In this document: in pieces, positions 664-60,368 of the stretch
How positions within the stretch are numbered: position 1 is the stretch's first letter
Layout of the letters: each line of letters opens with the position of its first letter
Assembly (NCBI RefSeq): GCF_963921235.1
Contig: NC_086097.1
Coordinates: 30,506,001 to 30,570,000, forward strand
DNA: 64,000 bases
Direction: 5' to 3'
Source: Mobula hypostoma
Taxonomy: Eukaryota
The notes under the pieces: generated by a model
Database searches by the model: none
Told to the model about the DNA's origin: nothing
Seen by the model: the letters and a program-made list of their open reading frames with translations, nothing else
Program-made: the position numbers and the translations under genes

Positions 664-815
664 CAAACACGAGATTGTGCAGATGCTGGAAATCCAGAGT
701 AACACCACAAAATGCGGGAGGAATTCAACAGGTCAGGCTGCCTCTACAGAGGGCAATAACAGTCGATGTTTCAGGTTGAGACTCTTCATCAGCACTAGAA
801 AGGAAAGAGGAAGGA
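664..815 (-). mobile_element. Penelope terminal module with degenerate hammerhead (761-796)
   Basis: gcagatgctggaaatcc...caggtcaggc...agtcgatgtttcaggttgagactcttcatcagcact, the same module as 14905-15030. Confidence 0.8.
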
Positions 816-3960: not shown

Positions 3961-4489
3961 TATTCCCAAGATCAGACCAACTAACCTTCACTCAGAGGAT
4001 GCTGCGAGTGTAGAACAAGCTGCCAAAGGAAGTGGAAGTCCTGAGTTCAATTGTAACATTTAAGAGAAGTTCACATAGGTACATGGATGAGAGGGGTTTT
4101 GAGGGATATGGTCCAAATGCTGGTCAATGGGACAAGAGAGAAGGCCAGTTTCTGTGCTGTAGTGCTCACTGATTCTAAACAAGCAATGGGTGAGCATAAC
4201 ACCTGACTTGCACTGGGAGCTCCTGAGAAGACCAGGTGGGGTCTCATTGTTCTATAATTCTTTGTCGCACCACTTATTTAATCATGTATCCAGCAATTCA
4301 ATCCATTAGAAGAATACAAACGGAGCAAAAAATATTGGAGGTGTACAGGATTGGGTTTCTAACATGCTGCCTCCAGGAGCCATCTGGCAATTGGATTGAG
4401 TACACTGAGCAAGAGTGACCTTAATCAGATGATTTACGGCGTGATCTGTGTTTCTCCTACATCCTTTATGTGGGATGAACTTGATAATG

Positions 4490-5222
4490 TTCCACGTATG
4501 TGAGGTGATACACTTTGGAAAGTCAAACTTGAAGGCAGAGTACAGAGCTAATGGCAGGATTCTTAGCAATGTGCAGGAACTGAGGGATCTTGGGGTCAAC
4601 ATCCACAGATCCCTCAAAGCTGATAGTGTATACTGTTAAGAAAGTGTATACTGGCACTCATTAGTTGGGGAATTGAGTTCAAGAGCCGCAAGGTAATGTT
4701 GCAGCTCCATAAAACTCTGGTTACACCACACGGAGTATTGTGTTCAGTTCTGGTTGCCTCATTATAGAAAGGATGTGGAAACTTCAGAGGGTGCATAGGA
4801 GAATTATCAGATTTTTGGATTAGAGAGCATATCTTATTGGGATAGGCCAAGCAAGCTAAGGCTTTCCTCTTTAGAGCAAAAGATGAGAGGTGGCTTGATA
4901 GAGGTGTACAAGACAATAGACAAAGTGGACAGAGAGAGCTTTTATCACAGGGCAGAATGGCTAATACGAGGGGACATAATTTTGAGGAAAGTATAGGAGG
5001 GATGTCAGAGGTAGGTTTTTATTTCTTTACACAGAGTGGTGGGTGCATGGAAGACACTGCCAGAAGTGTTAGGCATAGTTAAGAGATCCTTAGGCACCAG
5101 GATTAAAGAAAAATGGAAGGCTATATAGGAGGGAAACGTTAGATTGATCTTACAGATGGTTAAATGTTTGGTGCAACATCATGGGCTGAAGGATCTGTAC
5201 TGAGTTGTTCTGTGATCTATGT
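4490..5222 (+). mobile_element. CR1 3' fragment
   Basis: CEVIHFGKSN...RDLGVNIHRSLK through to the 3' UTR. Confidence 0.85.
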
Positions 5223-9169: not shown

Positions 9170-12100
9170 TCAGTCATAGAACACTACAGCAAAGAAACAG
9201 GCCCTTCAGCCCATCTAGTCCATGCCAAACCATTAATCTGCCTAGTCTCATCGACCTGTCTGTAAACCATAGGCTTCCATACCCCTCCTATCCATGTACC
9301 TATCCAAATTTCTCTTAAATGTTAAAATCGAATTCACATCCACTACTTCCACTGCCAGCTCATTCCTCTCTCACAGCAGGCTCGGATTGAAAAAGCTCCC
9401 TCTCATGTTCCCCGAAACATTTCATCTTACACCCTTAACCCATGACTTCTAGTAGTCTCACCCAACCGCGGTGGAAAACACCTGCTTGCATTTACCCTAT
9501 CTAGATCACTCAATTTCACATACCTATCAAATCTCCTCTCCATCTTCTACACTCTAGGGAATAAAGTCCGAACCTATTCAACTCTTCCCTATAACTCAGG
9601 TGTTCAATTCCTGGCAATATCCTTGTCAATTTTCTCTGCACTCTTTCAATCATATCTACATTTCCTGTAGGTAGGTGACCAAAACTGCACACAATACTCC
9701 AAATTAGGCCTCACCAACATCTTATACAACTTCAACATAACTTCCCAACTCGTATTCAGTACTTTGATTTATGAAGGCCAATGTGCCAAAAAGATTTCAT
9801 AACAACCCTATCTACTTGTGATGCCATTTTCAAGGAATTATGGACCTGTGTTCCCAGGTTCCTGTCTAACACACTCCTCAGGGCCCTTCGGCTCACCGTG
9901 CAAGACCTATCCTGGTTGGTCCTTCCAAAGTGCAACACCTCAGACCTGTCTGGATTAAACTCTATCCGTCATTTTTCAGCCCATTTTTCCAGCTGGTGCA
10001 AATCCCCTGGCAAACTTTGATAATCTTCCTCGCTGTCCACTACACCCTCAGTCTTGGTGTCATCCACAAACTTGCTAATCCAGTTTACCACATTATCATC
10101 CAGATTGTTGATATAGATGAGAAACAGCAGCCGGCACCAACACCAATGTCTCTGGCACACCACTAGTTACAGGCCTGCAGTCAAAGCAGCAGCTATCTAC
10201 TACCTCACCTTGAATGTCAAGCGACTGAACTTTCCTGATCAAGCTCTTACGCGGGACCTTATCAAAGGACTTGCTAAAGTCCATGCAGATAACATACACT
10301 GCTTTTCCTTCATTTACTTCCTGAAAAAAAACACTAAGATTGGTTAGGCACAACCTACTATGCACAAAGCCATGCTGACTATCCCTAAACAATCCCTGTC
10401 TATCCAATACTCATATATCCAGTCCTTTAGAATACCTTCCAATAACTTTCCCGCTACCGTAACTTCCTGGCTTACTTAAACAACAAAGAGCTTTTCTTAA
10501 ACAAAACAATATTAGTTATCCTCCAAACTTTCCTACACTTCACCTGTAAATAGTGGATGCATTAGTGATAATTTTTCAAAACTCGTTAGATTCTGGACTA
10601 GTTCCTGAGGATTGGAGGGTGGCTAATGTAACCTCACTTTTTAAAAAAGGAGGGAGAGAGAAACTGGGGAATTATAGACCGGTTAGCCTAACGTCGGTGG
10701 TGGGGAAACTGCTGGAGTCAGTTATCAAAGATGTGATAACAGCACATTTGGAAGGCGGTGAAATCATCGGACAAAGTCAGCATGGATTTGTGAAAGGAAA
10801 ATCATGTCTGACGAATCTCATAGAATTTTTTGAGGATGTAACTATTAGAGTGGATAGGGGAGAACCAGTGGATGTGGTATATTTGGATTTTCAAAAGGCT
10901 TTTGACAAGGTCCCACACAGGAGATTAGTGTGCAAACTTAAAGCACACGGTATTGGGGGTAAGGTATTGATGTGGATGGAGAATTGGTTAGCAGACAGGA
11001 AGCAAAGAGTGGGAATAAACGGGACCTTTTCAGAATGGCAGGCGGTGACTAGTGGGGTACCGCAAGGCTCAGTGCTGGGACCCCAGTTGTTTACAATATA
11101 TATTAATGACTTGGATGAGGGAATTAAATGCAGCATCTCCAAGTTTGCGGATGACACGAAGCTGGGTGGCAGTGTTAGCTGTGAGGAGGATGCCAAGAGG
11201 ATGCAGAGTGACTTGGATAGGTTGGGTGAGTGGGCAAATTCATGGCAGATGCAATTTAATGTGGATAAATGTGAAGTTATCCACTTTGGTGGCAAAAATA
11301 GGAAAACAGATTATTATCTGAATGGTGGCTGATTAGGAAAAGGGGAGGTGCAACGAGACCTGGGTGTCATTATACACCAGTCATTGAAAGTGGGCATGCA
11401 GGTACAGCAGGCGGTGAAAAAGGCGAATGGTATGCTGGCATTTATAGCGAGAGGATTCGAGTACAGGAGCAGGGAGGTACTACTGCAGTTGTACAAGGCC
11501 TTGGTGAGACCACACCTGGAGTATTGTGTGCAGTTTTGGTCCCCTAATCTGAGGAAAAACATCCTTGCCATAGAGGGAATACAAAGAAGGTTCACCAGAT
11601 TGATTCCTGGGATGGCAGGACTTTCATATGAAGAAAGACTGGATGAACTGGGCTTGTACTCGTTGGAATTTAGAAGATTGAGGGGGGATCTGATTGAAAC
11701 GTATAAGATCCTAAAGGGATTGGACAGGCTAGATGCAGGAAGATTGTTCCCGATGTTGGGGAAGTCCAGAACAAGGGGTCACAGTTTGAGGATAAAGGGG
11801 AAGCCTTTTAGGACCAAGATTAGGAAAAACTTCTTCACACAGAGAGTGGTGAATCTGTGGAATTCTCTGCCACAGGAAACAGTTGAGGCCAGTTCATTGG
11901 CTATATTGAGGGAGTTAGATATGGCCCTTGTGGCTACGGGGATCAGGGGGTATGGAGGGAAGGCTGGGGCGGGGTTCTGAGTTGGATGATCAGCCATGAT
12001 CATAGTAAATGGCGGTGCAGGCTCGAAGGGCCGAATGGCCTACTCCTGCACCTATTTTCTGTGTTTCTATGTTTCACCTGTGGCTAAGGACTATTTAAAC

Positions 12101-13934: not shown

Positions 13935-14340
13935 TTCAAACATCTGCCACATTCCCATTCCGGGTCCTCTGTCCACGGCTTCCTTCATTGCCATGAGGAC
14001 AACAAACTCAGGTTGGAGGAGCAGCACCTCATATTCAATCTGGGTAGTCTCCAAACTGATCGTACGAACATCAGTTTCTCCAACTTCTGGTAATTTCTCC
14101 TCTCCCGCGACCCCCTCCCCCCAACTTCCTCTTCTCTTTCTCCATTCCGGTTCCCCTCTCACCCCTCCTCTTCTTCTTACCTGTCCATCACCTCCCTCTG
14201 GTGGCACTCCTTCCCTTTCTTCCATGGACCATTGTCCCCTTCTAACAAATTACTACTCCAGGCCTTAACCTTTCCGATCCATCTCCTCCCAGCTTCTTTC
14301 CTCACTGCCACCCACCCCCCCACAACCTGGTCTCACCATA
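13935..14340 (+). mobile_element. Penelope-like element 3' fragment
   Basis: Similar to 16815-17150 (cactcaggttggaggagcagcacctcatattc...ttctccaacttc, then the pyrimidine-rich UTR). Confidence 0.75.
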
Positions 14341-14990
14341 GACAAGGTGGACAGTAACTGTCTTTTCTTCAGGACAGGGCAGACCAAAACTAGAAGGTAT
14401 AGGGTTAGGGTGAGATAGGATATATGTAAAAGAGAGCTAAGGGACTTGTTTTTTTAAGTGCAGAGGGTGTTGAGTATATGGAATGAGCTTCCAGAGGAAG
14501 TGGTTGAAGTAGGGAAACGTATAATTTAAGTAGTACTTGGATTGGTACATGGAAGGGAGAGGCTTGGAGGAATTTAGCCAAACACAGGAAATTGGGATTG
14601 GCTGGGTGGACACTCTGTTCGGCATAGACTGGTTGGGCAGAGGAGCCTACAGCTGTTAAAAAGCTTCAAGGTTCAAATTTATTTATCACGTTAATAAAAA
14701 CAGTGAAATGGAACATTTGTGTTAACAGCTAACACACACACAAAGGTGTGCTGGGGGTAGCTTGCAAGGGTCGCCACATATTCCAGCCTCAAGTCCCCTG
14801 TCAAGCTCACACTTCTCACCTTAAACCCTATTAGTTTGGAATTTCCCCACAAAGAACAGGCCATGTCCTTCTGAGCAAGGTAAACAGCTTCAACAAAAAC
14901 AGGAATTCTGCAGATGCTGGAAATTCAACTAACACACATCAAAGTTGCTGGTGAACGCAGCAGGCCAGGCAGCATCTCTAGGAAAAGATA

Positions 14991-15028
14991 CAGTCGATGT
15001 TTCAGGCCGAGACCCTTCGTCAGGACCA
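14991..15028 (-). ncRNA. Hammerhead motif copy in the inverted left arm (one stem III mutation)
   Basis: Minus strand GGTC-CTGACGA-AGGGTCTCGGCCT-GAAA-CA-TC-GACT. ACGT has become ACAT, a CpG-type change. Confidence 0.7.
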
Positions 15029-15612
15029 ACTGAAGGAAGAGTTAGTAAGAGATTTGAAAGTGGGAGGGGGAGGGGGAGATCCAAAATGATAGGAGAAGAC
15101 AGGAAGGGGAGGGATGGAGTAAAGAGCTGGACAGGTGATTGGCAAAAGGGGATACGAGACGATCATGGGACAGGAGGCCCAGCGTGAAAGACAAGGGGGC
15201 GGGGGGAACCCAGAGGATGGGCAAGGGGTATAGTCAGAGGGACAGAGGGAGAAAAAGGAGAGTGAAAGAAAGAATGTGTGTATATGAATAAATAACGGAT
15301 GAGGTACGAGGGGGAGGTGGGGCATTAGCGGAAGTTAGAGAAGTCAATGTTCATGCCATCAGGTTGGAGGCTACCCAGACGGAATATAAGGTGTTGCCCC
15401 TCCAACCTGAGTGTGGCTTCATCTTTACAGTAGAGGAGGCCGTGGATAGACATGTCAGAATGGGAATGGGATGTGGAATTAAAAAGTGTGGCCACTGGGA
15501 GATCCTGCTTTCTCTGGCGGACAGAGCGTAGGTGTTCAGCAAAGTGGTCTCCCAGTCTGCGTCGGGACTCGCCAATATATAGAAGGCCACATCGGGAGCA
15601 CCGGACGCAGTA

Positions 15613-16961
15613 ACTCCCTATATACTTCCATCCCCCATCAGGAAGGTCTTAAAGTTCTCCACTTCTTTTTGGATTCCAGACCTAATCAGTCCCCCTCTAC
15701 CACCACTCTGCTCCGTCTAGTGGAATTAGTCCTTACTCTTAATAATTTCTCCTTTGGCTCCTCCCACTTCCTCCAAACTAAAGGTGTAGCTATGGGCACC
15801 CGTATGGGTTCCAGCTATGCCTGCCTTTTTGTTGGCTTTCTGGAACAATCTATGTTCCGTGCCTATTCTGGTATCTGTCCCCTACTTTTCCTTCGCTACA
15901 TCGACGACTGCATTGGCGCTGCTTCCTGCATGCATGCTGAGCTCGTTGACTTTATTAACTTTGCCTCCAACTTTCACCCTGCCCTCAAGTTTACCTGGTC
16001 CATTTCCGACACCTCCCTCCCCTTTCTAGATCTTTCTGTCTCTGTCTCTGGAGACAGCTTATCCACTGACGTCTACTATAAGCCTACTGACTCTCACAGC
16101 TATCTGGACTATTCCTCTTCTCACCCTGTCTCTTGCAAAAATGCCATCCCCTTCTCGCAATTCCTCCGTCTCCGCCGCATCTGCTCTCAGGATGAGGCTT
16201 TTCGTTCCAGGACGAGGGAGATGTCCTCCTTTTTTAAAGAAAAGGGCTTCCCTTCCTCCACCATCAACTCTGCTCTCAAGCGCATCTCCCCCATTTCATG
16301 CACATCTGCTCTCACTCCATCCTCCTGCCACCCCACTAGGAATAGGGTTCCCCTGGTCCTCACCTACCACCCCACCAGCCTCCGGGTCCAACATATTATT
16401 CTCCGTAACTTCCGCCACCTCCAATGGGATCCCACCACTAAACACATCTTTCCCTCCCCCCACCCCGCTTTCCGCAGGGATCGCCCTCTAGGCGATTCCC
16501 TTGCCTATTCATCCCCCCCATCCCTCCCCACTGATCTCCCTCCTGGCACTTATCCTTGTAAGTGGAACAAGTGCTACACATGCCCTTACACTTCCTCGCT
16601 CACCACCATTCAGGGCCCCAGACAGTCCTTCCAGGTGAGGCAACACTTCACCTGTGAGTCGGCTGGGGTGATATACTGCATCTGGTGCTCCCGATGTGGC
16701 CTTCTATATATTGGCAAGACCCGACGCAGACTGGGAGACCGCTTTGCTGAACACCTACACTCTGTCCGCCAGAGAAAGCAGGATCTCCCAGTGGCCACAC
16801 ATTTTAATTCCACATCCCATTCCCATTCTGACATGTCTATCCACGGCCTCCTCTACTGTAAAGATGAAGCCACACTCAGGTTGGAGGAACAACACCTTAT
16901 ATTCTGTCTGGGTAGCCTCCAACCTGATGGCATGAACATCGACTTCTCTAACTTCCGCTAA
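15613..16961 (+). pseudogene. Truncated Penelope RT/GIY-YIG ORF (open from SLYTSIPH to the stop, N-terminus missing)
   Basis: Uninterrupted frame with RT motifs B and C, thumb, Cys-rich linker and GIY-YIG. It begins just after the motif-A aspartate position (normally D-x-x-SLYT). The first ~42 codons of the track ORF 15486..16961 come from the antisense arm. Confidence 0.9.
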
Positions 16962-17237
16962 TGCCCCACCTCCCCCTCGTACCCCATCCGTTATTTATTC
17001 ATATACACACATTCTTTCTTTCACTCTCCTTTTTCTCCCTCTGTCCCTCTGACTATACCCCTTGCCCATCCTCTGGTTCTCCCTGGGCCTCCTGTCCCAT
17101 GATCCTCTCGTATCCCCTTTTGCCTATCACCTGTCCGACTCTTGGCTCCATCCCTCCCCCTCCTGTCTTCTCCTATCATTTCAGATCTCCCCCTCCCCCT
17201 CCCACTTTCAAATCTCTTGCTAACTCTTCCTTCAGTT

Positions 17238-17273
17238 AGTCCTGACGAAGGGTCTCGGCCTGAAACGTCGACT
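17238..17273 (+). ncRNA. Minimal type-I hammerhead ribozyme motif in the Penelope pseudo-LTR
   Basis: AGTC-CTGACGA-AGGGTCTCGGCCT-GAAA-CG-TC-GACT. Stem I AGUC/GACU, core CUGANGA and GAAA, short stem II, palindromic ACGU stem III, GUC triplet (predicted cut after 17269). Confidence 0.85.
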
Positions 17274-18899
17274 GTACCTCTTCCTTGAGATGCTGCCTGG
17301 CCTGCTGCATTCACCAGCAACTTTGATGTGTGTTGGTTGAAGGTAAACAGCTTGTTGCTTTTCACATTTAATCATTTGAGATTGTTTTTTTTCCAAAGAA
17401 AGGGCCATGAAAGCATAGCCCACCACACCCAAACCTAACAACCATCTTGGGAACTGAGGAAGTGGAGAGTTAATGGTGTATAACTGTTTCAGGCATCTGA
17501 GAATAACTTGCTGGAAAATGAGACAAAATGGGCTCCAGGGTAACTGATCCCAGAGAGCTGAAGAGAGCATCTGTAACACCAGTGCCTATTCCTGCAATGT
17601 CATGCTGCAGTGCATTTGGCTCAACAAGCTGGTGTGTGGGGCCTCATGTGCATTCTTCAATATTTAATGATTCGGTGTATTATTACAGACCTTCCTGCTT
17701 GTGCTCATCATATCTCTCTGGATGAGGGCTGGAACTGGTTCAATCTCTAAAAGGCAGTGTATCAGGTGATCAAAGTCTTCCTGTAGTGAGGTCCCCACTG
17801 ACTGCAATTATTCACATCAACTGCCCGATCCTTCGCCCATCCCCTCCCTCTGCCCCTACCAGATCCGTACGAGTCTGCAAAGAACAAGACCTACTGAGTA
17901 TTTATCTCTCTTCAGTCAGTTCATTCTAAACCACAGAATGGTTTTGGGCAGGAAACCAGTTGGCAGGGAAGACTTATTGAAACCTATCAAATACTGAAAG
18001 GATTGGATAGAGTGGATGTTTCCTATAGGAGGGAGTCTCGGACCAGAGGGCATAGCCTCAGAATAGAACATCCCTTTAGAACCAAGATGAGGAGGAATTT
18101 CTTCAGCCAGATGTTTGAAGGGGCCAAATCACTGGATACATTTAAAGCAGAGGTCGACAGGCCCTTCATTGATTTGTAAGGGGGTTGAGGGTTATTGGGA
18201 GAAGGCAGGAGAATGGGGTTGAGAGGAATAATAAATCAACCATGACGGAATGGGAGAGCAGACTCCATGGGCAAATGGGCTAATTCCTTAAGACTAGTTC
18301 AACTGGCTCAAACAGTGCCTTCCTTGAATTGTATGTGTGTTCTAGGTACTTCCTGTCTTAAAAAGGAATTTAGGAAAAATTAAAACGCATTCCACCGGCA
18401 GCAAATTTTCCACATAGGGACTGACTACATGGAGTGAAAAATGTTTCTGGCCTTTTACAGCAATATTGAACAGGATGGAGTTGCTTGAGACAACAATGGA
18501 ATTAAATTCCAGGTCCATTTCTTGCTATAAATAACCGATGTTGTAAAAACAGAGCAAAAATCAAAAGTGCCCACACACCAGGAAGGAAAAGAGATTCAAC
18601 ACAAAACAGGAAGGCATCAAGGGTTCTTAAAGAAAAGACTCAAATGCAATTTAATTTGCTGCATTCAAAGTTCAAAGTACATTTCTTATCAAAGTATGTA
18701 TACCATGTACAATCTTGAGATTCATCTTTTTGCAGGCAGCCAGAAAACAAAGAAACACAATAGAACCCACTAAAAACAAAAAACACTACACAATCTGGTG
18801 AAAAGTTTGGGTATTTTTTTTAAATTAGAAGAGAAAATTCTGGAAATACAATACTACTCTTTGAGAGGAAAATTTAATTCAGACACTTCAAAATTAAAC

Positions 18900-29524: not shown

Positions 29525-29708
29525 CCCACCCTCCCCTCCCCTCCTCCCACTTTCTTACTGACTTCTCATCTCTTCTTCCACTCCTGATGAAGGGTTTCAG
29601 CCCAAAACGTTGACTGTTTACTCTTTTCCATAGATGCTGCCTGGCCTGCTGAGTTCCTCCAGCATTTTCTGTGTTACTTTGATTTCCAGCATTTACAGAT
29701 TTTTTCTC
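29525..29708 (+). mobile_element. Penelope terminal module (hammerhead at 29580-29615, GAAA decayed to AAAA)
   Basis: ctcCTGATGAagggtttcagcccAAAAcgttgact...gatgctgcctggcctgctgagttcctccagcatt...gatttccagcatttacaga. Confidence 0.85.
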
Positions 29709-30716: not shown

Positions 30717-30935
30717 CACTCACAACACACTGGAGGGACTCAGCAGGTCAGGCAGCATGTGGAAACGATCAGGCAGCATCTCGGGCCAGAACCCTTCATC
30801 AGGACCTCTGATGGAAGGGTTCCGGCCAGAAACGTTGACTGATCGTTCCCACGGATGCTGCCCGACCTGCTGAGTCCCTCCAGCGTGCTGTGAGTGTTGC
30901 TTTGACCCCAGCATCTGCAGAGTATTTTGTGTTTA
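30717..30935. mobile_element. Palindromic Penelope-derived mini-element (two back-to-back hammerhead modules)
   Basis: Left arm 30717-30805 is the reverse complement of the right arm starting at 30808. The right arm has an extra tail ending cagcatctgcagagtattttgtgttt. Possible short TSD tacca (30712-30716 / 30934-30938). Confidence 0.85.
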
Positions 30936-32628: not shown

Positions 32629-33175
32629 CATAAACAAAATGCTGAAGGAACTCCACAGGTCAGGTAGCATCTATGGATAGAAATAAACAGTTGATGCTTC
32701 AGGCTGATATCCTTCACCAGGGCTGGAAAGGAAGAGGGCAGAACAGACTAAGGTGGGGAGAGGGGAAGGAGTACAAGCTGGCAGGTGGTAGGTGAGACCA
32801 GGTGAGGGGGCAAGTGAGTGGGTGGAGGAGGGGGAATGATGCGAGAAGCTGGGAGTGGATAGGTGGAAAAGGTAAAGGACCGAAGAACATGGAATCTGAT
32901 AAGATAGGACAGTGGACCATGGGAGAATGGGAAGGAGGAGGGGCACCAGAGGGAGGTGATGGGCAGGTGAGAGAGAAGAGGTAAGAGTGGAACCATAATG
33001 GGGAAATGAGAAAGAGAGGGAGGGGAAATTACCTGAAGTTACAGAAATCGATGTTCATGCCATCAGATTGGAGGCTATCCAGATGGAATATGAGGTATTG
33101 CTCCTCCAACCTGAAAGTAACCTCTTGACAATAGAGGTGGCCATGGACTGACATGTCAGAATGGGAATAGGAAGT
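32629..33175 (-). mobile_element. Penelope-like element 3' fragment, older
   Basis: Similar to 16820-17330 (end of GIY-YIG, UTR), with a degenerate hammerhead at ~32689-32724. Confidence 0.85.
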
Positions 33176-33326: not shown

Positions 33327-33400
33327 CAACACACATCAAAGTTGCTGGTGAACGCAGCAGGCCAGGCAGCATCTATAGGAAGAGGCGCAGTCGACGTTTC
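33327..33400 (-). mobile_element. Very short, young Penelope terminal fragment
   Basis: Nearly identical to 14931-15003. Flanked by tttctctg at 33319-33326 and 33397-33404. Truncated within the hammerhead GAAA. Confidence 0.8.
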
Positions 33401-33587: not shown

Positions 33588-34465
33588 GCAACACACACAA
33601 AATGCTGGAGGAAATCAGCAGGCCAAACAGCATCTATGGAAGAGATAATAGTCGACGTTTCAGTCTGAGACACTTCATCAGGACTGGAGAGAGAAAAAGA
33701 GAAACGAGGACTCACTAGTTAGAAGGTGGGGGGAGGAGAGGAAGAAACACAAGGTGATAGGTGAAACTAGGAGTAGGGGGAAGAGGAGCGAAGTAAAGAG
33801 CTATGAAGTTGATTAGTGAAAAAGATACTGGGCTGGAAAAGGGGGAGGAGCACCAGAGGGAGGTGATGGGCAGGTAAACTGAGAGGGAAATGGGAATGGG
33901 GAATGGTGAGGAGGGAGGGGCATTACTAGAAGTTCGAGAAATCGATGTTCATGGCATCAAGTTGGAGGCTACCCAGACGGAATGCAAGGTGTTGCTCCTC
34001 CAACCCGAGTATGGTCTCATCATGGCAGTAGAGGCGGCCACGGACTGACGTGTCGGAATGGGAAGTGGAATTAAAATGTGTGGTCACTAGGAGATCTAGC
34101 TTTTTCTGGCAAATAGAGCATAGGTGTTCAGCAAAGCGATCTCCCAATCTACGTCGGGTCTCACCGATATACAGGGAGCCACACGGGGAGCATCAGATAC
34201 AGTAGATAACCCCAAAAGACTAACGGGTGAAGTGTCACCTCATCTGGAAGGACTGTTTGGGGCCTTGAATGGTAGTGAGGGAGGAGGTGCAGGGGCAGAT
34301 GTTGCATTTGTTCCACTTGCAAGTGCAAGTGCCAGGAGGGAGATCAGTGGGGAGAAACGAATGGACAAGGGAGTCATGCAGGGAGCGAGCCCTCTGGAAA
34401 GCAGAAAGCTGGGGGGAGGGAAAGATGTGTTTGGTGGTGGGATCCCGTTGGAGATGGGATCCAAT
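33588..34465 (-). mobile_element. Penelope-like element 3' fragment (linker, GIY-YIG, 3' module with hammerhead)
   Basis: Track ORFs 34235..34474 and 33926..34147 match the C-terminus of the ORF ending at 16961 (CKWNKCNICP; GDRFAEHL...GSLQLDAMNIDFSNF), followed by the pyrimidine-rich UTR and hammerhead module. Confidence 0.92.
33650..33685 (-). ncRNA. Hammerhead motif with intact core, same strand as the jagged transcript
   Basis: Minus strand AGTC-CTGATGA-AGTGTCTCAGACT-GAAA-CG-TC-GACT. All core nucleotides, stem I and the ACGU palindrome are present. Confidence 0.8.
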
Positions 34466-40309: not shown

Positions 40310-40403
40310 CACACAAAATGTTGGAGGAACTCAGCAGGCCAGGCAGCACCTATGGAAAAGAGCAAACAGTCGACGTTTCGGGCTGAGATCCTCCACCAGA
40401 ACT
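40310..40403 (-). mobile_element. Penelope terminal module with mutated hammerhead core
   Basis: cacaaaatgttggaggaactcagcaggccaggcagc...cagtcgacgtttcgggctgagatcctccaccagaact. Confidence 0.75.
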
Positions 40404-40939: not shown

Positions 40940-42835
40940 GTTTGACAATTGCTCTCTTGTTCACACCCCCCTCGGCAAACAGGCCCAAGTGCCAGGGCAC
41001 CTCAGCAACAACACCTCCCCCACTCCCCCACCTCCAATTCAATACGTGGATGAACAACACAGGCTACCTCTGTCTACATCCACTTCTTGCCCTGCACTTA
41101 CTATCCACACCTCCATATACCAACAATCATCCCAATCTTCAATTTCCCCAGCCCCCACCTTCCATCAACTCCCCCGTCATCATGGACTCACCTTCACTAC
41201 TGAGCAGGTGAGAAGGGCTCTGGGGAAACTCAAGACACACCAAAGCATTGGGACCGGATAGTGTGAAACCCAAAGTCTTGAAGGAGTGTGCTGAACAGCT
41301 CTGTTGAGTTCTTCAGTGCATTTTTAATCTGAGTCTCAGCCTGGAAAGGGTCCCAACCGTGTGGAGACATTACGTGTGGTCCCAGTGCCCAAGAAGGGCC
41401 AACCAAAAGTCTTGAATAACTACTGTCCAGTGACCCTGACCTCACATATCTTGATGATCCTTGAGCGCATGATTCTTGTGCACCTCCAACCACTGGTCAG
41501 AGTCACTCTCAATCCCCTGCAGTTTGCTGGCCAGGAGTACACTGGAGTCAACAATGCTCTCATCTATCTCTTGAACAGAGCCTGCTCCCAGTTGGATAAG
41601 CAGGGCAGCACTGTGAGACATTGTTTTTAATTTCTCAAGTGCCTTCAATATCACACAGCCCTCATTGCTCCATTCAACCAGGTTGGCACTTCCATTGCAT
41701 CCTGGATCATGGACTACCTGACTGGCAGACCACAGTTTGTGCAGCTTCAGAGTGGTGTGTCAGACATGGCTATAAGCAGCACTGGGCCCCACAAGGGACT
41801 GTATTGGCTCCCTTCCTGCTTACCCTGTATACCTTGGACTTGAGATACAATACTGAGCAATGTCATCTGCAGAAATTCTCTGATGACTCAGCAATAGTTG
41901 GGTGTATAAAGGGAGGATGGGAGGATGAATACAGGGCTCTGGTGGAAGCTGAATCATCTGCAGCTCAATATCAGTAAGGCGATGGCAATGGCCTTTAGGA
42001 AGACTAAGCCTGCACTGCTCCCTGTTACTATTGATGGTGAGGACACTCATGTGGTGAGGACCTACAAGTAGCTGGGGGTACACCTGGATGACAGACTTGA
42101 GTGGAGCACCAACACACAGGCTGTGTACAAGGGCCAGAATCTTTCTCATCAGTTTATAGAGCCTGTTGGCATCACCCAAGTTGATGCCATTGCCCCTGCA
42201 CACCACCACATAGAAGATTCTGCTGGCGACAACAGGCTAGTAAGAACATGTGAAGGAGAGGCCTGCATTCTCCAAAGGACCTCAGTCTCTGCTTCCTGAG
42301 GAGACTGAGGTCCTTTGGAGGATGCAGGCCTCTCCTTCACATATTCTATCAGTCTGTTGTCGCCAGCACTATCTTCTATGTGGTGGTGTGCAGGGGCAAT
42401 GGCATCAACACCGGTGATGCCAACAGACTCAATAAACTAATTAGAAAGGCTGACTGTTATAGGAGTCAAACTGGACATGCTGGAGGCTGTGGTAGAATAA
42501 AGGACCCTATGGAAAATCCTGGCAATTCTGGACAATGTTTCTCACCCTCTGCATGCCACCTTGGCTGAACAGAGAATACAATACTCAATATACAATACAA
42601 TACAGACTAAGACAACTGTGCTGCTCCAAAGAGCGCTATACATGGTCATTCTTACCCTCAGCTATTAGGCTCTATAATGAGTCAACCTATAGCTAGGGAA
42701 GTGATAACCTCTTCCAGTTAAACTGTTTGAGACAACTTTTTTTTATTATTTCATACTTCTCTTATATTTGTATAGCCATGCACTTGTAATGTTACTGTAA
42801 TACTTATTTCCTTTGGGATCAATAAAGTATCTATC
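40940..42835 (+). mobile_element. Rex1/Babar-type LINE, 5'-truncated and degenerate, inserted in a CR1 3' end
   Basis: VVPVPKKGQPKVLNNYCPVTLTS, APQGTVLAPFLLTLYT, LQKFSDDSAIVG. Ends aataaagtatctatc. CR1 3'-end sequence (minus strand) lies at 40810-40925 and resumes at ~42830-42965. Confidence 0.88.
42141..42448. repeat. Fold-back inverted duplication (~149-bp arms, 11-nt spacer)
   Basis: 42141-42289 is the reverse complement of 42301-42448, with scattered mismatches. Confidence 0.92.
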
Positions 42836-51134: not shown

Positions 51135-52709
51135 CAGTGGTGCTGGAAAGTTTGTGAACCCTTTAGAATTTTCTATTTCTGCATAAATATGACCTAAAAT
51201 GTGATTAGATCTTCACATAAATCCTAAAATTAAAGTGAATCCAATTAAATAAATAACAACATTATACTTGTTCATTTATGGAGAAAAATGATCCAATATT
51301 ACATGTATTTGTTCGAAGTAGTATGTGAACCTCTAGGATAATCAGTTCATTTAATGGGGAAATTAGAGTCAGGTGTTTCAATCAATGGGATGACAATCAG
51401 GTGTGAGTGTGGGGGGCCCTGTCCTATTTAAAGAACATAAACCTGAGTCTTCACCACACAGGTTTTGGAAGCGAGCCATGCCTCGATCAAAGGAGATTTC
51501 TGAGGACCTCAGAAAAAAGTTGATGCTCACCAGGTTGGAAAAAGATACAAAAAAAAATTCTTAAGAGCTTGGATTTCACCAATGCACAGTCAGGGAGATG
51601 GTGTACAAATGGAGGAAATTCAACACCATTGTTACTCTCCCCAGGAGTGATCAATCAATATAATTCCAAGAGCAAGACGTGTTATATTCCAGGAGATCTC
51701 AAAGAACCTTAAGAAAATATCTAAGGAGCTACAGGCCTCTCCTGCATGGCTAATGTCAACGTTCATGGGTCTGCCATCAGCCAAATGCTGAACAGTGGTG
51801 TGCATGGCAGGATTACAAGAAGATTACTCTCCAAGAAGAACATTGCTGCCCACCTAAAGTGTGCTCTGTGGATAAGCTGGAAGGCTATTGTTAGTATGTT
51901 CTGCGGACAGAGTCTGAAATAGAACTTTTTTGGCTTAAATGAAAAGCGTTATGTTTGATGAAAAGCAAACATTGAATTCCAGTACAAGAACCTCATCTCA
52001 TCTGTCAAATATACTGGTGGCAGTGTCATGGTTTAGGGCTGCCTCAGGGCCTGGACAGCTTGCAATTGTTGAGGAAACAATGAATTCAAAATTATATCAA
52101 GACATTTTACAGGAGAATATCAAGTTAGTCATCTATCACCTGAAGCATAATAAAAGTTGTATAATGCAACAAGAAAATGATCCGAAAGGCAAGAGTAAAT
52201 CAACAATGGAATGGTTTAAAAGGAAGAAAATTTGTGTTTTGGAATGGCCAAGTCAAGGTCCTGAACCTAAACCTATAGAAGTGTTTTGGAAGGACCAGAG
52301 GCAAGCAGTTCATGCAAGGAATCCCACCAGCATCCCAGAGTTGAAGCAGCTTTGTACTGTGAATGGCCTAAAATTCCCCCAAGCCAATGTGCAGGACTGA
52401 TCAACAATTATTGGGAACATTTGGTTGAAGTTATTGCTGGACGGGGGACGGGGGACGGGGGACGGGGGACAGGGTCCACGCCAGTTACTGAAAGCAAAGG
52501 TTCACATACCTTTTCCAACAACTACATGTAATATTGGCTCTTTTTTCTCTATAAATAAATGAAAAAGTATAATGTTTTTCCTGTTATTTATTTAACTGGG
52601 TTCTCCTTATCTGGTTTTAGAACTTACGTGAAGATCTGATCACATTTTAGATCTTTTTAATGCAGAAACAAAAACTTCTAAAGGGTTCACAAACTTTCTA
52701 GCACCACTG
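51135..52709 (+). mobile_element. Tc1 DNA transposon, full length (~1.57 kb), decayed transposase (resembles the Frog Prince-type lineage)
   Basis: TA TSDs at 51133-51134 and 52710-52711. TIR cagtggtgctggaaagtttgtgaaccctttagaa / ttctaaagggttcacaaactttctagcaccactg, extending ~200 bp. Transposase starts at ATG 51478 (MPRSKEISEDLRK). The DDE region IMQQENDPK...VLEWPSQGPEPKPIE is in ORF 51939..52400. Multiple frameshifts. Confidence 0.94.
52441..52474 (+). repeat. (ACGGGGG)4 ACAGGG tandem repeat
   Basis: Four perfect 7-mers and one degenerate unit at the end of the Tc1 transposase remnant. Confidence 0.9.
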
Positions 52710-55869: not shown

Positions 55870-56895
55870 ATAAGGGTAGAACATTCAGTCAATGGTAGGG
55901 CCCTGAGGAGTGTTCTAGAACAGGATGACTAAGGAGTATAGTACCATGAAAATGGTGTCACAGGTAGACGTAGTGGTCAATGCGGCACTTGACATGCCGG
56001 CCTTCATCAAACAGGGCACTGAGTATAGAACAGAAGAGATTTTGCACTTGCTGGAAATCCAGAATAACACACAAAATGCAGGAGGAACTCAGCAACATCA
56101 AGCAGCATCTACAGATAGGAATAAACTGTCAATGTTTTGGGCTAAGACACTTAATCAGAATGAAAAGTCTCAACCCAAAATGTTAACTGCTTAATTCCTC
56201 TCTGTAGATGTTGCCTGACCTGCTCACTTCTTCCAGCATTGAGAACGACTGAGTATAGAAATTGGGATGTTATGCTGCAGTTGTACAAGACTTTGGTGAG
56301 GCTGCACCTAGAGTATTATGTATAGTTTCGGTCACCTTGCTATAAGAAAGATGTCAATAAGCTGGAAAGTATGCAAAGATTTACAAGGATGTTGCCAGGA
56401 ATTGAGAGACTTATTTATGAGGAGGAGAAAGTTGGCAGGCTAAGGGTATTCCTTGGAGAGCAGGAGGCTGAGGGGAGATAGAGGCATACAAATTTATGGG
56501 GGAATGTAGAAAGGGTAAATGCGAGCAGGGTTTTTCCACTGAGTTTGAGTGAAACAAGAACTAGAAGCTATAGGTTAAGGATGAAAGGTAAAATATTTAA
56601 AGGAAACAAGGGGGAACTTTTTCCACTCATACAAGAAAGCAATTAGCATTTTCTTCACAATTTAGAGGGTGGTGCGAGTATGGAACGAGCTGCCAGTGGA
56701 AGTGGTGGCTGCAGGTTCATTTCCAACATGTAAGAGAAGTTTGGATAAGTACATGAATGAGAGGCTATGGAGGGCTATGGTCCAGACATGGGTCAATGGG
56801 ACTAGGCGTAATAACAGTTCAACCCAGACTGGATGGGTTATTCAGTTTGTGTCGAGCTCTTATTACGCTGAAGGGCCTGTTTCTGTGCTGTAGTC
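55870..56895 (+). mobile_element. CR1 3' fragment hosting the palindromic mini-element
   Basis: AFIKQGTEYR|NWDVMLQLYKTLVRLHLEY is continuous across the TSD; VVRVWNELP near the end. Confidence 0.85.
56031..56247. mobile_element. Palindromic Penelope-derived mini-element inserted in a CR1
   Basis: Perfect 13-bp TSD actgagtatagaa at 56018-56030 and 56248-56260. Inverted arms are centred near 56160 and each carries a decayed hammerhead module. Confidence 0.85.
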
Positions 56896-60193: not shown

Positions 60194-60368
60194 ACAGCTG
60201 ACATTTCAGGCCCAGACCCTTCAGCAGGATTCAGTGTCCTGCTAAAGAGTCTCAGCCCAAAACTTCAACTGTACTCTTTTGCATAGATGCTGCCCGGCCT
60301 GCTGAGTTCCTCCAGCATTTTGTGTGTGTTGCTTGGATTTCCAGCATCTGCAGATTTTCTTTTGTTTG
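60194..60368. mobile_element. Palindromic Penelope-derived mini-element
   Basis: Short left arm (cagctgacatttcaggcccagacccttcagcaggat) faces the right arm (gtcctgctaaagagtctcagcccaaaacttcaactg...ccagcatctgcagattttcttttgttt). Degenerate TSD accctgacagttt (60181-60193) / atcttgatagttt (60369-60381). Confidence 0.8.

What the first reader, a model, noticed from the sequence alone, without database searches (positions are those of the whole stretch)
17238..17273. Intact minimal hammerhead ribozyme motif in the Penelope terminal repeat, with about 20 motif remnants in 64 kb
Seen: AGUC-CUGACGA-(stem II)-GAAA-CG-UC^GACU with a loop-less palindromic stem III (ACGU). Related motifs in various states of decay occur near 761, 8270, 12895, 14991, 19845, 22861, 29580, 30775, 30808, 32190, 32689, 33389, 33650, 40368, 49255, 49280, 56130, 56160, 57170, 60197 and 60237. 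Decay is often by CpG-type change (CGAAA>CAAAA, ACGT>ACAT). Known: minimal type-I hammerheads of Penelope-like elements are reported to cleave efficiently mainly as dimers. Inference: this genome carries a very high load of ribozyme motifs.
Basis: partly seen in the sequence, partly recalled or inferred. Interest (0 to 1): 0.7.

Follow-up and report, generated by a model that had tools for sequence, protein, structure and literature searches.

The report
Penelope retroelement hammerhead, 75,000 intact-core copies
This is a real copy of the tiny hammerhead ribozyme motif that Penelope-type jumping genes are already known to carry, present in tens of thousands of copies in this (likely shark or ray) genome; the copies break off at the motif's front edge and not at its predicted cut site, so it likely did not cut the RNA from which they were made.

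Summary
The motif at 17238-17273 is real. It is a minimal type I hammerhead in the terminal repeat of a Neptune-type Penelope-like element (PLE), a known association (PMC4209133). Only 2 window copies meet a structural descriptor. Genome-wide, 75,762 sites keep the core (control 1), about ten times the published vertebrate counts; roughly 600,000 remnants are extrapolated. Corrections: the dominant young subfamily has G·U in place of the conserved G10.1-C11.1 pair; the monomer is predicted to fold into an inactive rod; inserted copies decay at CpG rates, catalytic G8 included; neighbours are mostly head-to-head, not tandem dimers. Stem covariation is absent in the window but clear in distant relatives. 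Insertion anatomy: 43 of 43 head-to-head pairs join one short-ended and one tailed arm, and 40 of 43 share a target-site duplication. 5' ends pile up at the foot of stem I (23 of 164), not at the cut (4 of 164). The scan noted these features before, on this and other genomes. Known kind; cleavage untested.

The parts
17238..17273 (+). Minimal type I hammerhead motif; extra A at 17249, U11.1 at 17261, loop-less ACGU stem III, predicted cut between 17269 and 17270
   Evidence: cut site inferred from the hammerhead consensus
15613..17339 (+). Right arm of the insertion: 5'-truncated PLE copy, ends about 70 nt after C17 (short end, no tail); 93% identical to a natural full-length copy (L093)
15615..16961 (+). 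Remnant reading frame: RT palm onward, CX4CxxC linker, GIY-YIG endonuclease with internal CxxC (the 492-aa frame from 15483 runs 130 nt into the antisense of the other arm)
16962..17339 (+). Pseudo-LTR: pyrimidine-rich stretch, YAG, hammerhead, 70-nt downstream segment
14891..15612 (-). Left arm of the same insertion: inverted, 5'-truncated copy with the 30-40-bp tail (ends about 101 nt after C17)
14992..15027 (-). Hammerhead of the left arm, stem III palindrome broken (ACAT)
14877..14890 (+). Left copy of the 14-bp target-site duplication
17340..17353 (+). Right copy of the 14-bp target-site duplication
33650..33685 (-). Second remnant with intact core; stem II pairs only in the shifted (A-U) register, 3 bp
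33328..33400 (-). Young short copy that begins inside the hammerhead, 7 nt before C17; 8-bp duplication
759..796 (-). Older decayed remnant
29582..29617 (+). Older decayed remnant (G12>A)
30771..30841 (.). Head-to-head pair of decayed remnants (30771-30805 minus, 30808-30841 plus)
40366..40403 (-). Older decayed remnant
56128..56189 (.). Head-to-head pair of decayed remnants
60194..60272 (.). Head-to-head pair of decayed remnants

Best explanation
The motif is a minimal type I hammerhead in the terminal repeat of a Neptune-type Penelope-like retrotransposon, likely a weak, partner- or protein-assisted self-cleaver that is kept by selection only in the source elements, while the genomic copies are decaying by-products likely made from RNA that was not cut at this site. 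Shown: motif, element, copy numbers, decay, insertion anatomy. Inferred mechanism: the element's endonuclease cuts both target strands about 13-15 nt apart; the RT starts internally at two sites (about 65 and about 102 nt after C17), one per cut end; each cDNA runs through the uncut hammerhead; the two cDNAs are joined head to head. Short copies likely run off an RNA 5' end near the foot of stem I. The ribozyme would act at another step (processing read-through or tandem transcripts of source elements), where dimer formation or the element's protein refolds it from its rod-like ground state.
For: Element: natural copy L093 has repeat - 1043-codon frame - repeat plus tail; RVT_1 and GIY-YIG hits (weak); nearest named relative 72% identical, from a bamboo shark. 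Selection in source lineages: relatives at 33-62% protein identity carry the same core, extra nucleotide and palindrome with about ten different stem I pairings, 100-330 nt after the endonuclease in 11 of 34 loci, antisense 0, reversed 0. Neutral decay after insertion: G8 changed in 1,681 and G+1 in 2,086 sites per 36,060 unchanged. Uncut template: 4 of 164 copies begin within -2..+3 of the cut against 7 expected if the 92 short-copy ends were uniform; 23 begin at -33..-29; 11 of 18 duplication-flanked solo copies begin at -33..-28 and 1 at -2..+3; L093, L095 and L105 are longer than one unit and span two hammerheads. Two-arm insertion: 43 of 43 head-to-head pairs have one short and one tailed end; 40 of 43 have an exact duplication of 8 bp or more, shuffled control 0.55. 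Weak activity: monomer folds as a rod; modelled active dimer -11.5 against -22.0 kcal/mol for two rods. Agrees with PMC11167929 (two internal RT starts, both strands cut and extended, ribozyme active only with protein and not needed for insertion in vitro) and PMC4209133 (monomer inactive, dimer weak).
Against: No cleavage data. A cut-and-religated or circular RNA would also give copies with an intact junction and longer than one unit. The energy model ignores core tertiary contacts. In a 199-copy sample G8>A was rarer than at two other CpG Gs (6 of 199 against 41 of 397, p = 0.001), although the genome-wide counts show only a ratio of 0.81. The relatives were found with a descriptor that demands pairing, and 23 of 34 loci had no hit (several with little downstream DNA). 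Clade assignment rests on motifs, not a tree with named references. No RNA 5' end was observed. The -33..-29 bin was chosen after seeing the data. 136 of the 164 copies come from the first 5.4 Mb of one contig.
Confidence: 0.75

Rival explanations
1. The hammerhead cuts and religates (or a host ligase joins) unit-length RNA into a circle that is the RT template, as proposed in PMC4209133.
For: Copies longer than one unit with intact junctions (L093, L095, L105); core conserved with changing stems across families.
Against: A circle has no end, so it does not explain why 70 of 164 copies begin between -59 and -18 with a peak at -30. In vitro, ribozyme mutants of a Poseidon element insert normally (PMC11167929).
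Confidence: 0.15
2. The motif no longer cleaves in the young subfamily; after G10.1-C11.1 became G·U it serves only as a protein-binding, promoter or splice-adjacent element, or is a passenger.
For: U11.1 in 161 of 199 young copies against C in 18 of 19 hits from relatives; rod-like fold; PMC8557442 notes that some PLE clades thrive without a hammerhead.
Against: All core positions are unchanged between old and young consensus states, and G·U still pairs (14 of 14 paired at that position). C11.1 copies of the same young family exist (5,457).
Confidence: 0.2
3. The 5'-end peak marks a 3' splice site (pyrimidine tract plus YAG at -32..-30), where bound splicing factors stop the RT or where a spliced RNA begins, not a transcription start.
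For: CAG or TAG lies at that place in 72 of 134 remnants, with 68% pyrimidines upstream; in D. virilis Penelope the intron ends at the 5' end of helix I (PMC4209133).
Against: No shared upstream exon among the 23 copies that begin at -33..-29; most relatives lack YAG there; no joint to this site in contigs of 3 runs over the stretch laid at 95% likeness (a donor further upstream lay outside that stretch).
Confidence: 0.25
4. The short 95-135-bp copies are a self-propagating hammerhead SINE.
For: 18 of 37 unpaired short copies have their own target-site duplication and similar 5' ends.
Against: Short and long copies carry the same four diagnostic variant classes in similar proportions; 55 of 92 short arms are parts of two-arm insertions.
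Confidence: 0.08

Closest known systems
Minimal hammerheads (min-HHR) of metazoan PLE pseudo-LTRs, Cervera and De la Pena 2014 (PMC4209133; parts 1-2 of 4 of the text read, supplement file 2 searched, file 1 not searchable)
   Same: Type I core, extra nucleotide between 9 and 10.1, loop-less palindromic stem III, place in the pLTR, mostly solitary dispersed copies; reported from fish Neptune, Poseidon and Xena elements.
   Different: Copy number (75,762 core-intact sites against about 4,000 in coelacanth and 9,000 in Xenopus; different search rules); G·U in place of G10.1-C11.1 in the main subfamily; no shark or ray named in the supplement searched.
Neptune-clade endonuclease-bearing Penelope-like elements (PMC8557442; passages read)
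   Same: [quoted passage not shown]
   Different: Here the two-arm structure is quantified: one short and one tailed end in 43 of 43 pairs, inside one 10-16-bp duplication. Nematis, which shares the linker, was not excluded by a tree.
Poseidon element of Anolis carolinensis, Frangieh et al. 2024 (PMC11167929; parts 1-2 of 4 read)
   Same: Two internal RT start sites that delimit the tail; both DNA strands cut and extended; no RNA ends at the ribozyme cut; AT-rich targets (63% A+T beyond 3' ends here).
   Different: Other clade; there the start codon lies inside the ribozyme, here the first Met of the natural frame is about 140 nt after C17.
Non-LTR retrozymes (bioRxiv 10.64898/2026.07.22.740005; parts 1-2 of 5 read)
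   Same: Type I hammerheads derived from PLE pLTRs, found in one chondrichthyan too.
   Different: Retrozymes are tandem arrays; no such array in this window, and 10 of 61 close pairs are same-strand.

Membership tests
Minimal type I hammerhead (min-HHR) | Core CUGANGA ... GAAA ... UH | tested here: met
Minimal type I hammerhead (min-HHR) | Stem I (4-5 bp) and stem II (3 bp or more) can pair | tested here: met
   5 bp and 4-5 bp with G·U pairs
Minimal type I hammerhead (min-HHR) | Extra nucleotide between 9 and 10.1; palindromic 15.2-16.2 | tested here: met
   A17249; ACGU
Minimal type I hammerhead (min-HHR) | G10.1-C11.1 pair (highly conserved, not absolute) | tested here: not met
   G·U in this copy and 161 of 199 young copies; G-C in older copies and relatives
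Minimal type I hammerhead (min-HHR) | Covariation of stems | tested here: met
   Not among 14 window copies; about ten stem I pairings among 19 hits in 17 of 80 related loci, descriptor-selected
Minimal type I hammerhead (min-HHR) | Site-specific self-cleavage as dimer or with protein | not testable with these tools
   needs an in vitro assay
Endonuclease-bearing Penelope-like element | One frame with RT and C-terminal GIY-YIG | tested here: met
Endonuclease-bearing Penelope-like element | pLTR-ORF-pLTR, inverted truncated arm, one-sided tail | tested here: met
Neptune clade | CX2-5CxxC linker before the endonuclease and CCHH motif | tested here: met
   C-x4-C-xx-C in the linker and CxxC between GIY and YIG read from the translation; definition from PMC8557442
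Neptune clade | RT phylogeny with named Neptune and Nematis references | not tested
   no named reference sequences were at hand
Non-LTR retrozyme | Tandem array with a hammerhead in each unit | tested here: not met

The most novel reading that the evidence does not exclude
Every two-armed insertion of this family records one reaction in which both cut target ends prime reverse transcription, one at each of two fixed internal start sites, on an RNA that begins at the foot of the hammerhead and is not cut by it; the ribozyme marks the start of the element's RNA and not the end of the mobilized unit, and the subfamily that made most young copies did so with a weakened (G·U) ribozyme. With over 75,000 core-intact copies this genome would be the largest natural record of PLE integration chemistry.
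Probability: 0.45. Interest if true: 0.6.

Novelty: new member of a known kind. Interest (0 to 1): 0.38.

Why it matters
What hammerheads do in Penelope-like elements is stated to be unclear (PMC8557442), and only one such element has been reconstituted in vitro (PMC11167929). This family gives genome-scale support for that in vitro picture in another clade: two RT start sites, priming from both strands, no footprint of ribozyme cleavage on inserted copies. It also gives sharp predictions (RNA start near -30; one short and one tailed arm per insertion; G·U against G-C activity). The motif itself and its place are already described, so the finding as written is an ordinary member at an unusually high copy number.

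Tried and rejected
Rfam scan: no hammerhead family hit at E up to 1; minimal motifs are outside those models, so this was not taken as evidence. U11.1 as per-copy CpG decay: rejected, since 36,060 copies carry it with all other CpGs intact. Purifying selection on inserted copies: a sample hint was not borne out by genome-wide counts. Covariation within the window: none. Tandem cis-dimer arrangement: minority (10 of 61 pairs). Spliced copies with a shared first exon: none seen. A DNA search of the genome with the 66-nt downstream segment returned nothing because very common words are skipped. RNA runs: no RNA holder listed; only contigs of guessed-RNA runs. Laying them showed coverage that follows the genomic copy profile and cannot show ends, strand or cleavage. 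The 21 ends at -210..-235 are an artefact of the 260-nt extension limit and were pooled as 'long'; 8 duplicate records from overlapping loci and 1 edge record were dropped (173 to 164). Lunse et al. (PMC5785218, dimer cleavage) is not held; known only from its title and the summary in PMC6765202 (passages). Literature searches: hammerhead + Penelope-like + shark, Penelope + cartilaginous fish, Penelope-like + twin priming + inverted + target site duplication and G10.1/C11.1 gave listings only, with no paper on this family or on the two-arm rule; subscription papers and Repbase are not covered.

Full report
Observation. The motif is at 17238-17273 exactly as written. Two more positions are partial family copies and two (8270, 32190) stay unconfirmed. 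At 12 bits the sample holds 134 remnants, 11.5 per 64 kb, which extrapolates to about 626,000 in the 3.48-Gb genome; this is rough, because a third of the sample is one region and the seed came from the window. The window is about 1.5 times richer than the sample mean. Of the 134, 23 meet a min-HHR descriptor (reversed control 0), 2 of them in the window. Direct genome counts: 55,567 for a tight family pattern and 75,762 for core plus stem III with free stem II (control 1). Published counts for coelacanth and Xenopus are about 4,000 and 9,000 with other search rules (PMC4209133).

The element. The motif lies 276 nt after the stop of a frame with RT, a C-x4-C-xx-C linker and a GIY-YIG domain. 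A protein search of the genome found frames up to 1058 codons. Natural copy L093 has repeat - 1043-codon frame - repeat plus tail, each repeat with the hammerhead. The nearest named protein is from a bamboo shark at 72% identity, so the host is likely a cartilaginous fish (inference). The linker and CCHH motifs fit Neptune or Nematis (PMC8557442); no tree with named references was made. Sequence at 85% identity or more to this family covers 3.2% of the sample.

The local insertion. 14891-15612 (minus) and 15613-17339 (plus) are two 5'-truncated arms joined head to head, 92.5% alike over 689 bp. The left arm ends about 101 nt after the predicted cut (C17) and carries the tail; the right arm ends at about +70. 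One 14-bp duplication flanks both (14877-14890, 17340-17353), so this is a single event.

How intact is it? Position 11.1 is U. That is not decay of this copy: 36,060 exact copies have U and 5,457 have C; 161 of 199 young copies not chosen on the ribozyme have U. Older remnants have mostly C with a decaying CpG at G12, and U at position 7. So a subfamily with G·U made most young copies. The 40-nt monomer folds as a rod in which core GACG pairs with CGUC, z = -1.07. A modelled active dimer scores -11.5 kcal/mol against -22.0 for two rods (tertiary contacts ignored). This fits the low activity reported for min-HHRs (PMC4209133) and the protein dependence of the Anolis ribozyme (PMC11167929).

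Selection. Among 14 window copies no pair changes on both sides. Related elements from metagenomes (80 loci) give 19 descriptor hits in 17 loci; among the 34 loci whose match reaches the C-terminus, 11 have a sense hit 100-330 nt downstream, 0 antisense, 0 reversed. They keep the core, an extra nucleotide (A in 17 of 19), G10.1 (19 of 19), C11.1 (18 of 19) and a palindromic stem III, with about ten different stem I pairings. The descriptor demands pairing, so this shows conserved architecture and does not measure covariation without bias. After insertion the copies decay: on an otherwise unchanged background G8 is altered at 1,681 sites and the non-core G+1 at 2,086. A smaller sample had suggested protection of G8 (6 of 199 against 41 of 397); the whole-genome counts reduce this to a ratio of 0.81.

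What the ends record. 164 young copies were anchored on the segment downstream of the ribozyme, so not chosen on it (136 from the start of contig C1 around pattern hits, 28 from position-chosen DNA). 3' ends fall in two classes, +58..+76 (94) and +94..+115 (70). Of 61 neighbours within 4 kb, 43 are head-to-head, 10 same-strand, 8 tail-to-tail. All 43 head-to-head pairs have one end of each class, and 40 have an exact duplication of 8 bp or more, mostly 10-16 (shuffled control 0.55). 5' ends: 92 lie within -59..+18; 23 at -33..-29 with 10 at -30 (p = 1e-8 against uniform, bin chosen after inspection); 4 at -2..+3 where 7 are expected; 12 in -200..-60; 60 run further. Of 18 solo short copies with their own duplication, 11 begin at -33..-28 and 1 at the cut. 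Three copies exceed one unit and cross two hammerheads. Short and long copies share variant classes.

Mechanism. Shown: the counts above. Inferred: staggered double-strand cut, priming from both ends at two internal start sites, copying through an uncut hammerhead, head-to-head joining, and run-off at an RNA 5' end near the foot of stem I. This matches the in vitro behaviour of the Anolis element (PMC11167929) and explains the one-sided tail and inverted arm drawn in PMC8557442. The cause of the -30 peak is open: transcription start (an Inr-like TCAGTT lies at -37..-32; motif recalled; Penelope has an internal promoter, PMC2377424 passages), a 3' splice site (YAG in 72 of 134 remnants), or trimming to a hairpin. 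RNA data could not decide. For host transcripts, read-through of a two-arm insertion gives one sense ribozyme that can pair with its antisense arm, which would likely silence it (inference).

Comparison and verdict. It works like, and by all testable features but the G10.1-C11.1 pair is, a min-HHR of a PLE pLTR. It is not a tandem retrozyme. The searches listed under Tried and rejected found no paper on this family or on the two-arm rule. Earlier notes of this scan report the same motif in at least 22 genomes and the same end pile-up and two-arm anatomy in this genome; my counts were made on other DNA, and those notes are not independent support. New member of a known kind; interest 0.38, carried by copy number, the G·U subfamily and the insertion anatomy.

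Noticed in passing
window 42160-42440: A fold-back of about 290 bp with near-perfect arms around 42248-42342; Rfam miRNA matches are all below gathering score. Likely an inverted transposon fragment.
   Followed up: partly
window 10550-11980 (+): LINE reverse transcriptase remnant (RVT_1, E 2.5e-34), split into two frames; looks CR1-like (label recalled).
   Followed up: partly
window 51939-52400 (+): DDE_3 (Tc1/mariner-type) transposase fragment, below the Pfam cut-off.
   Followed up: no
L095 about 4258-4260 to 4501-4504 (window equivalent about 16637 to 16880): Contigs of guessed-RNA runs join a GT donor-like site in the endonuclease region to a CAG-preceded site about 240-245 nt downstream; may be splicing of exonized copies or another subfamily.
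   Followed up: no
L102 5224-5670: About eleven tandem 39-bp repeats of a piece of the RT-coding region, in frame with the rest of a truncated copy; possible repeated template slippage.
   Followed up: no
L105 and L108 (contigs C12 and C13): The same insertion with near-identical coordinates on a large contig and a 516-kb contig: a duplication or an uncollapsed haplotype.
   Followed up: no
window 13950-14118, 33014-33175, 33896-34457: Older endonuclease-region fragments of the same family at 74-81% identity.
   Followed up: no
L146 7135 and pattern hits: A further subfamily with a different stem II loop (TTCCAG type) and a different downstream segment.
   Followed up: partly
L288 3268: A related element whose hammerhead has a 6-nt palindromic stem III (ACGCGU) instead of 4 nt.
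   Followed up: no
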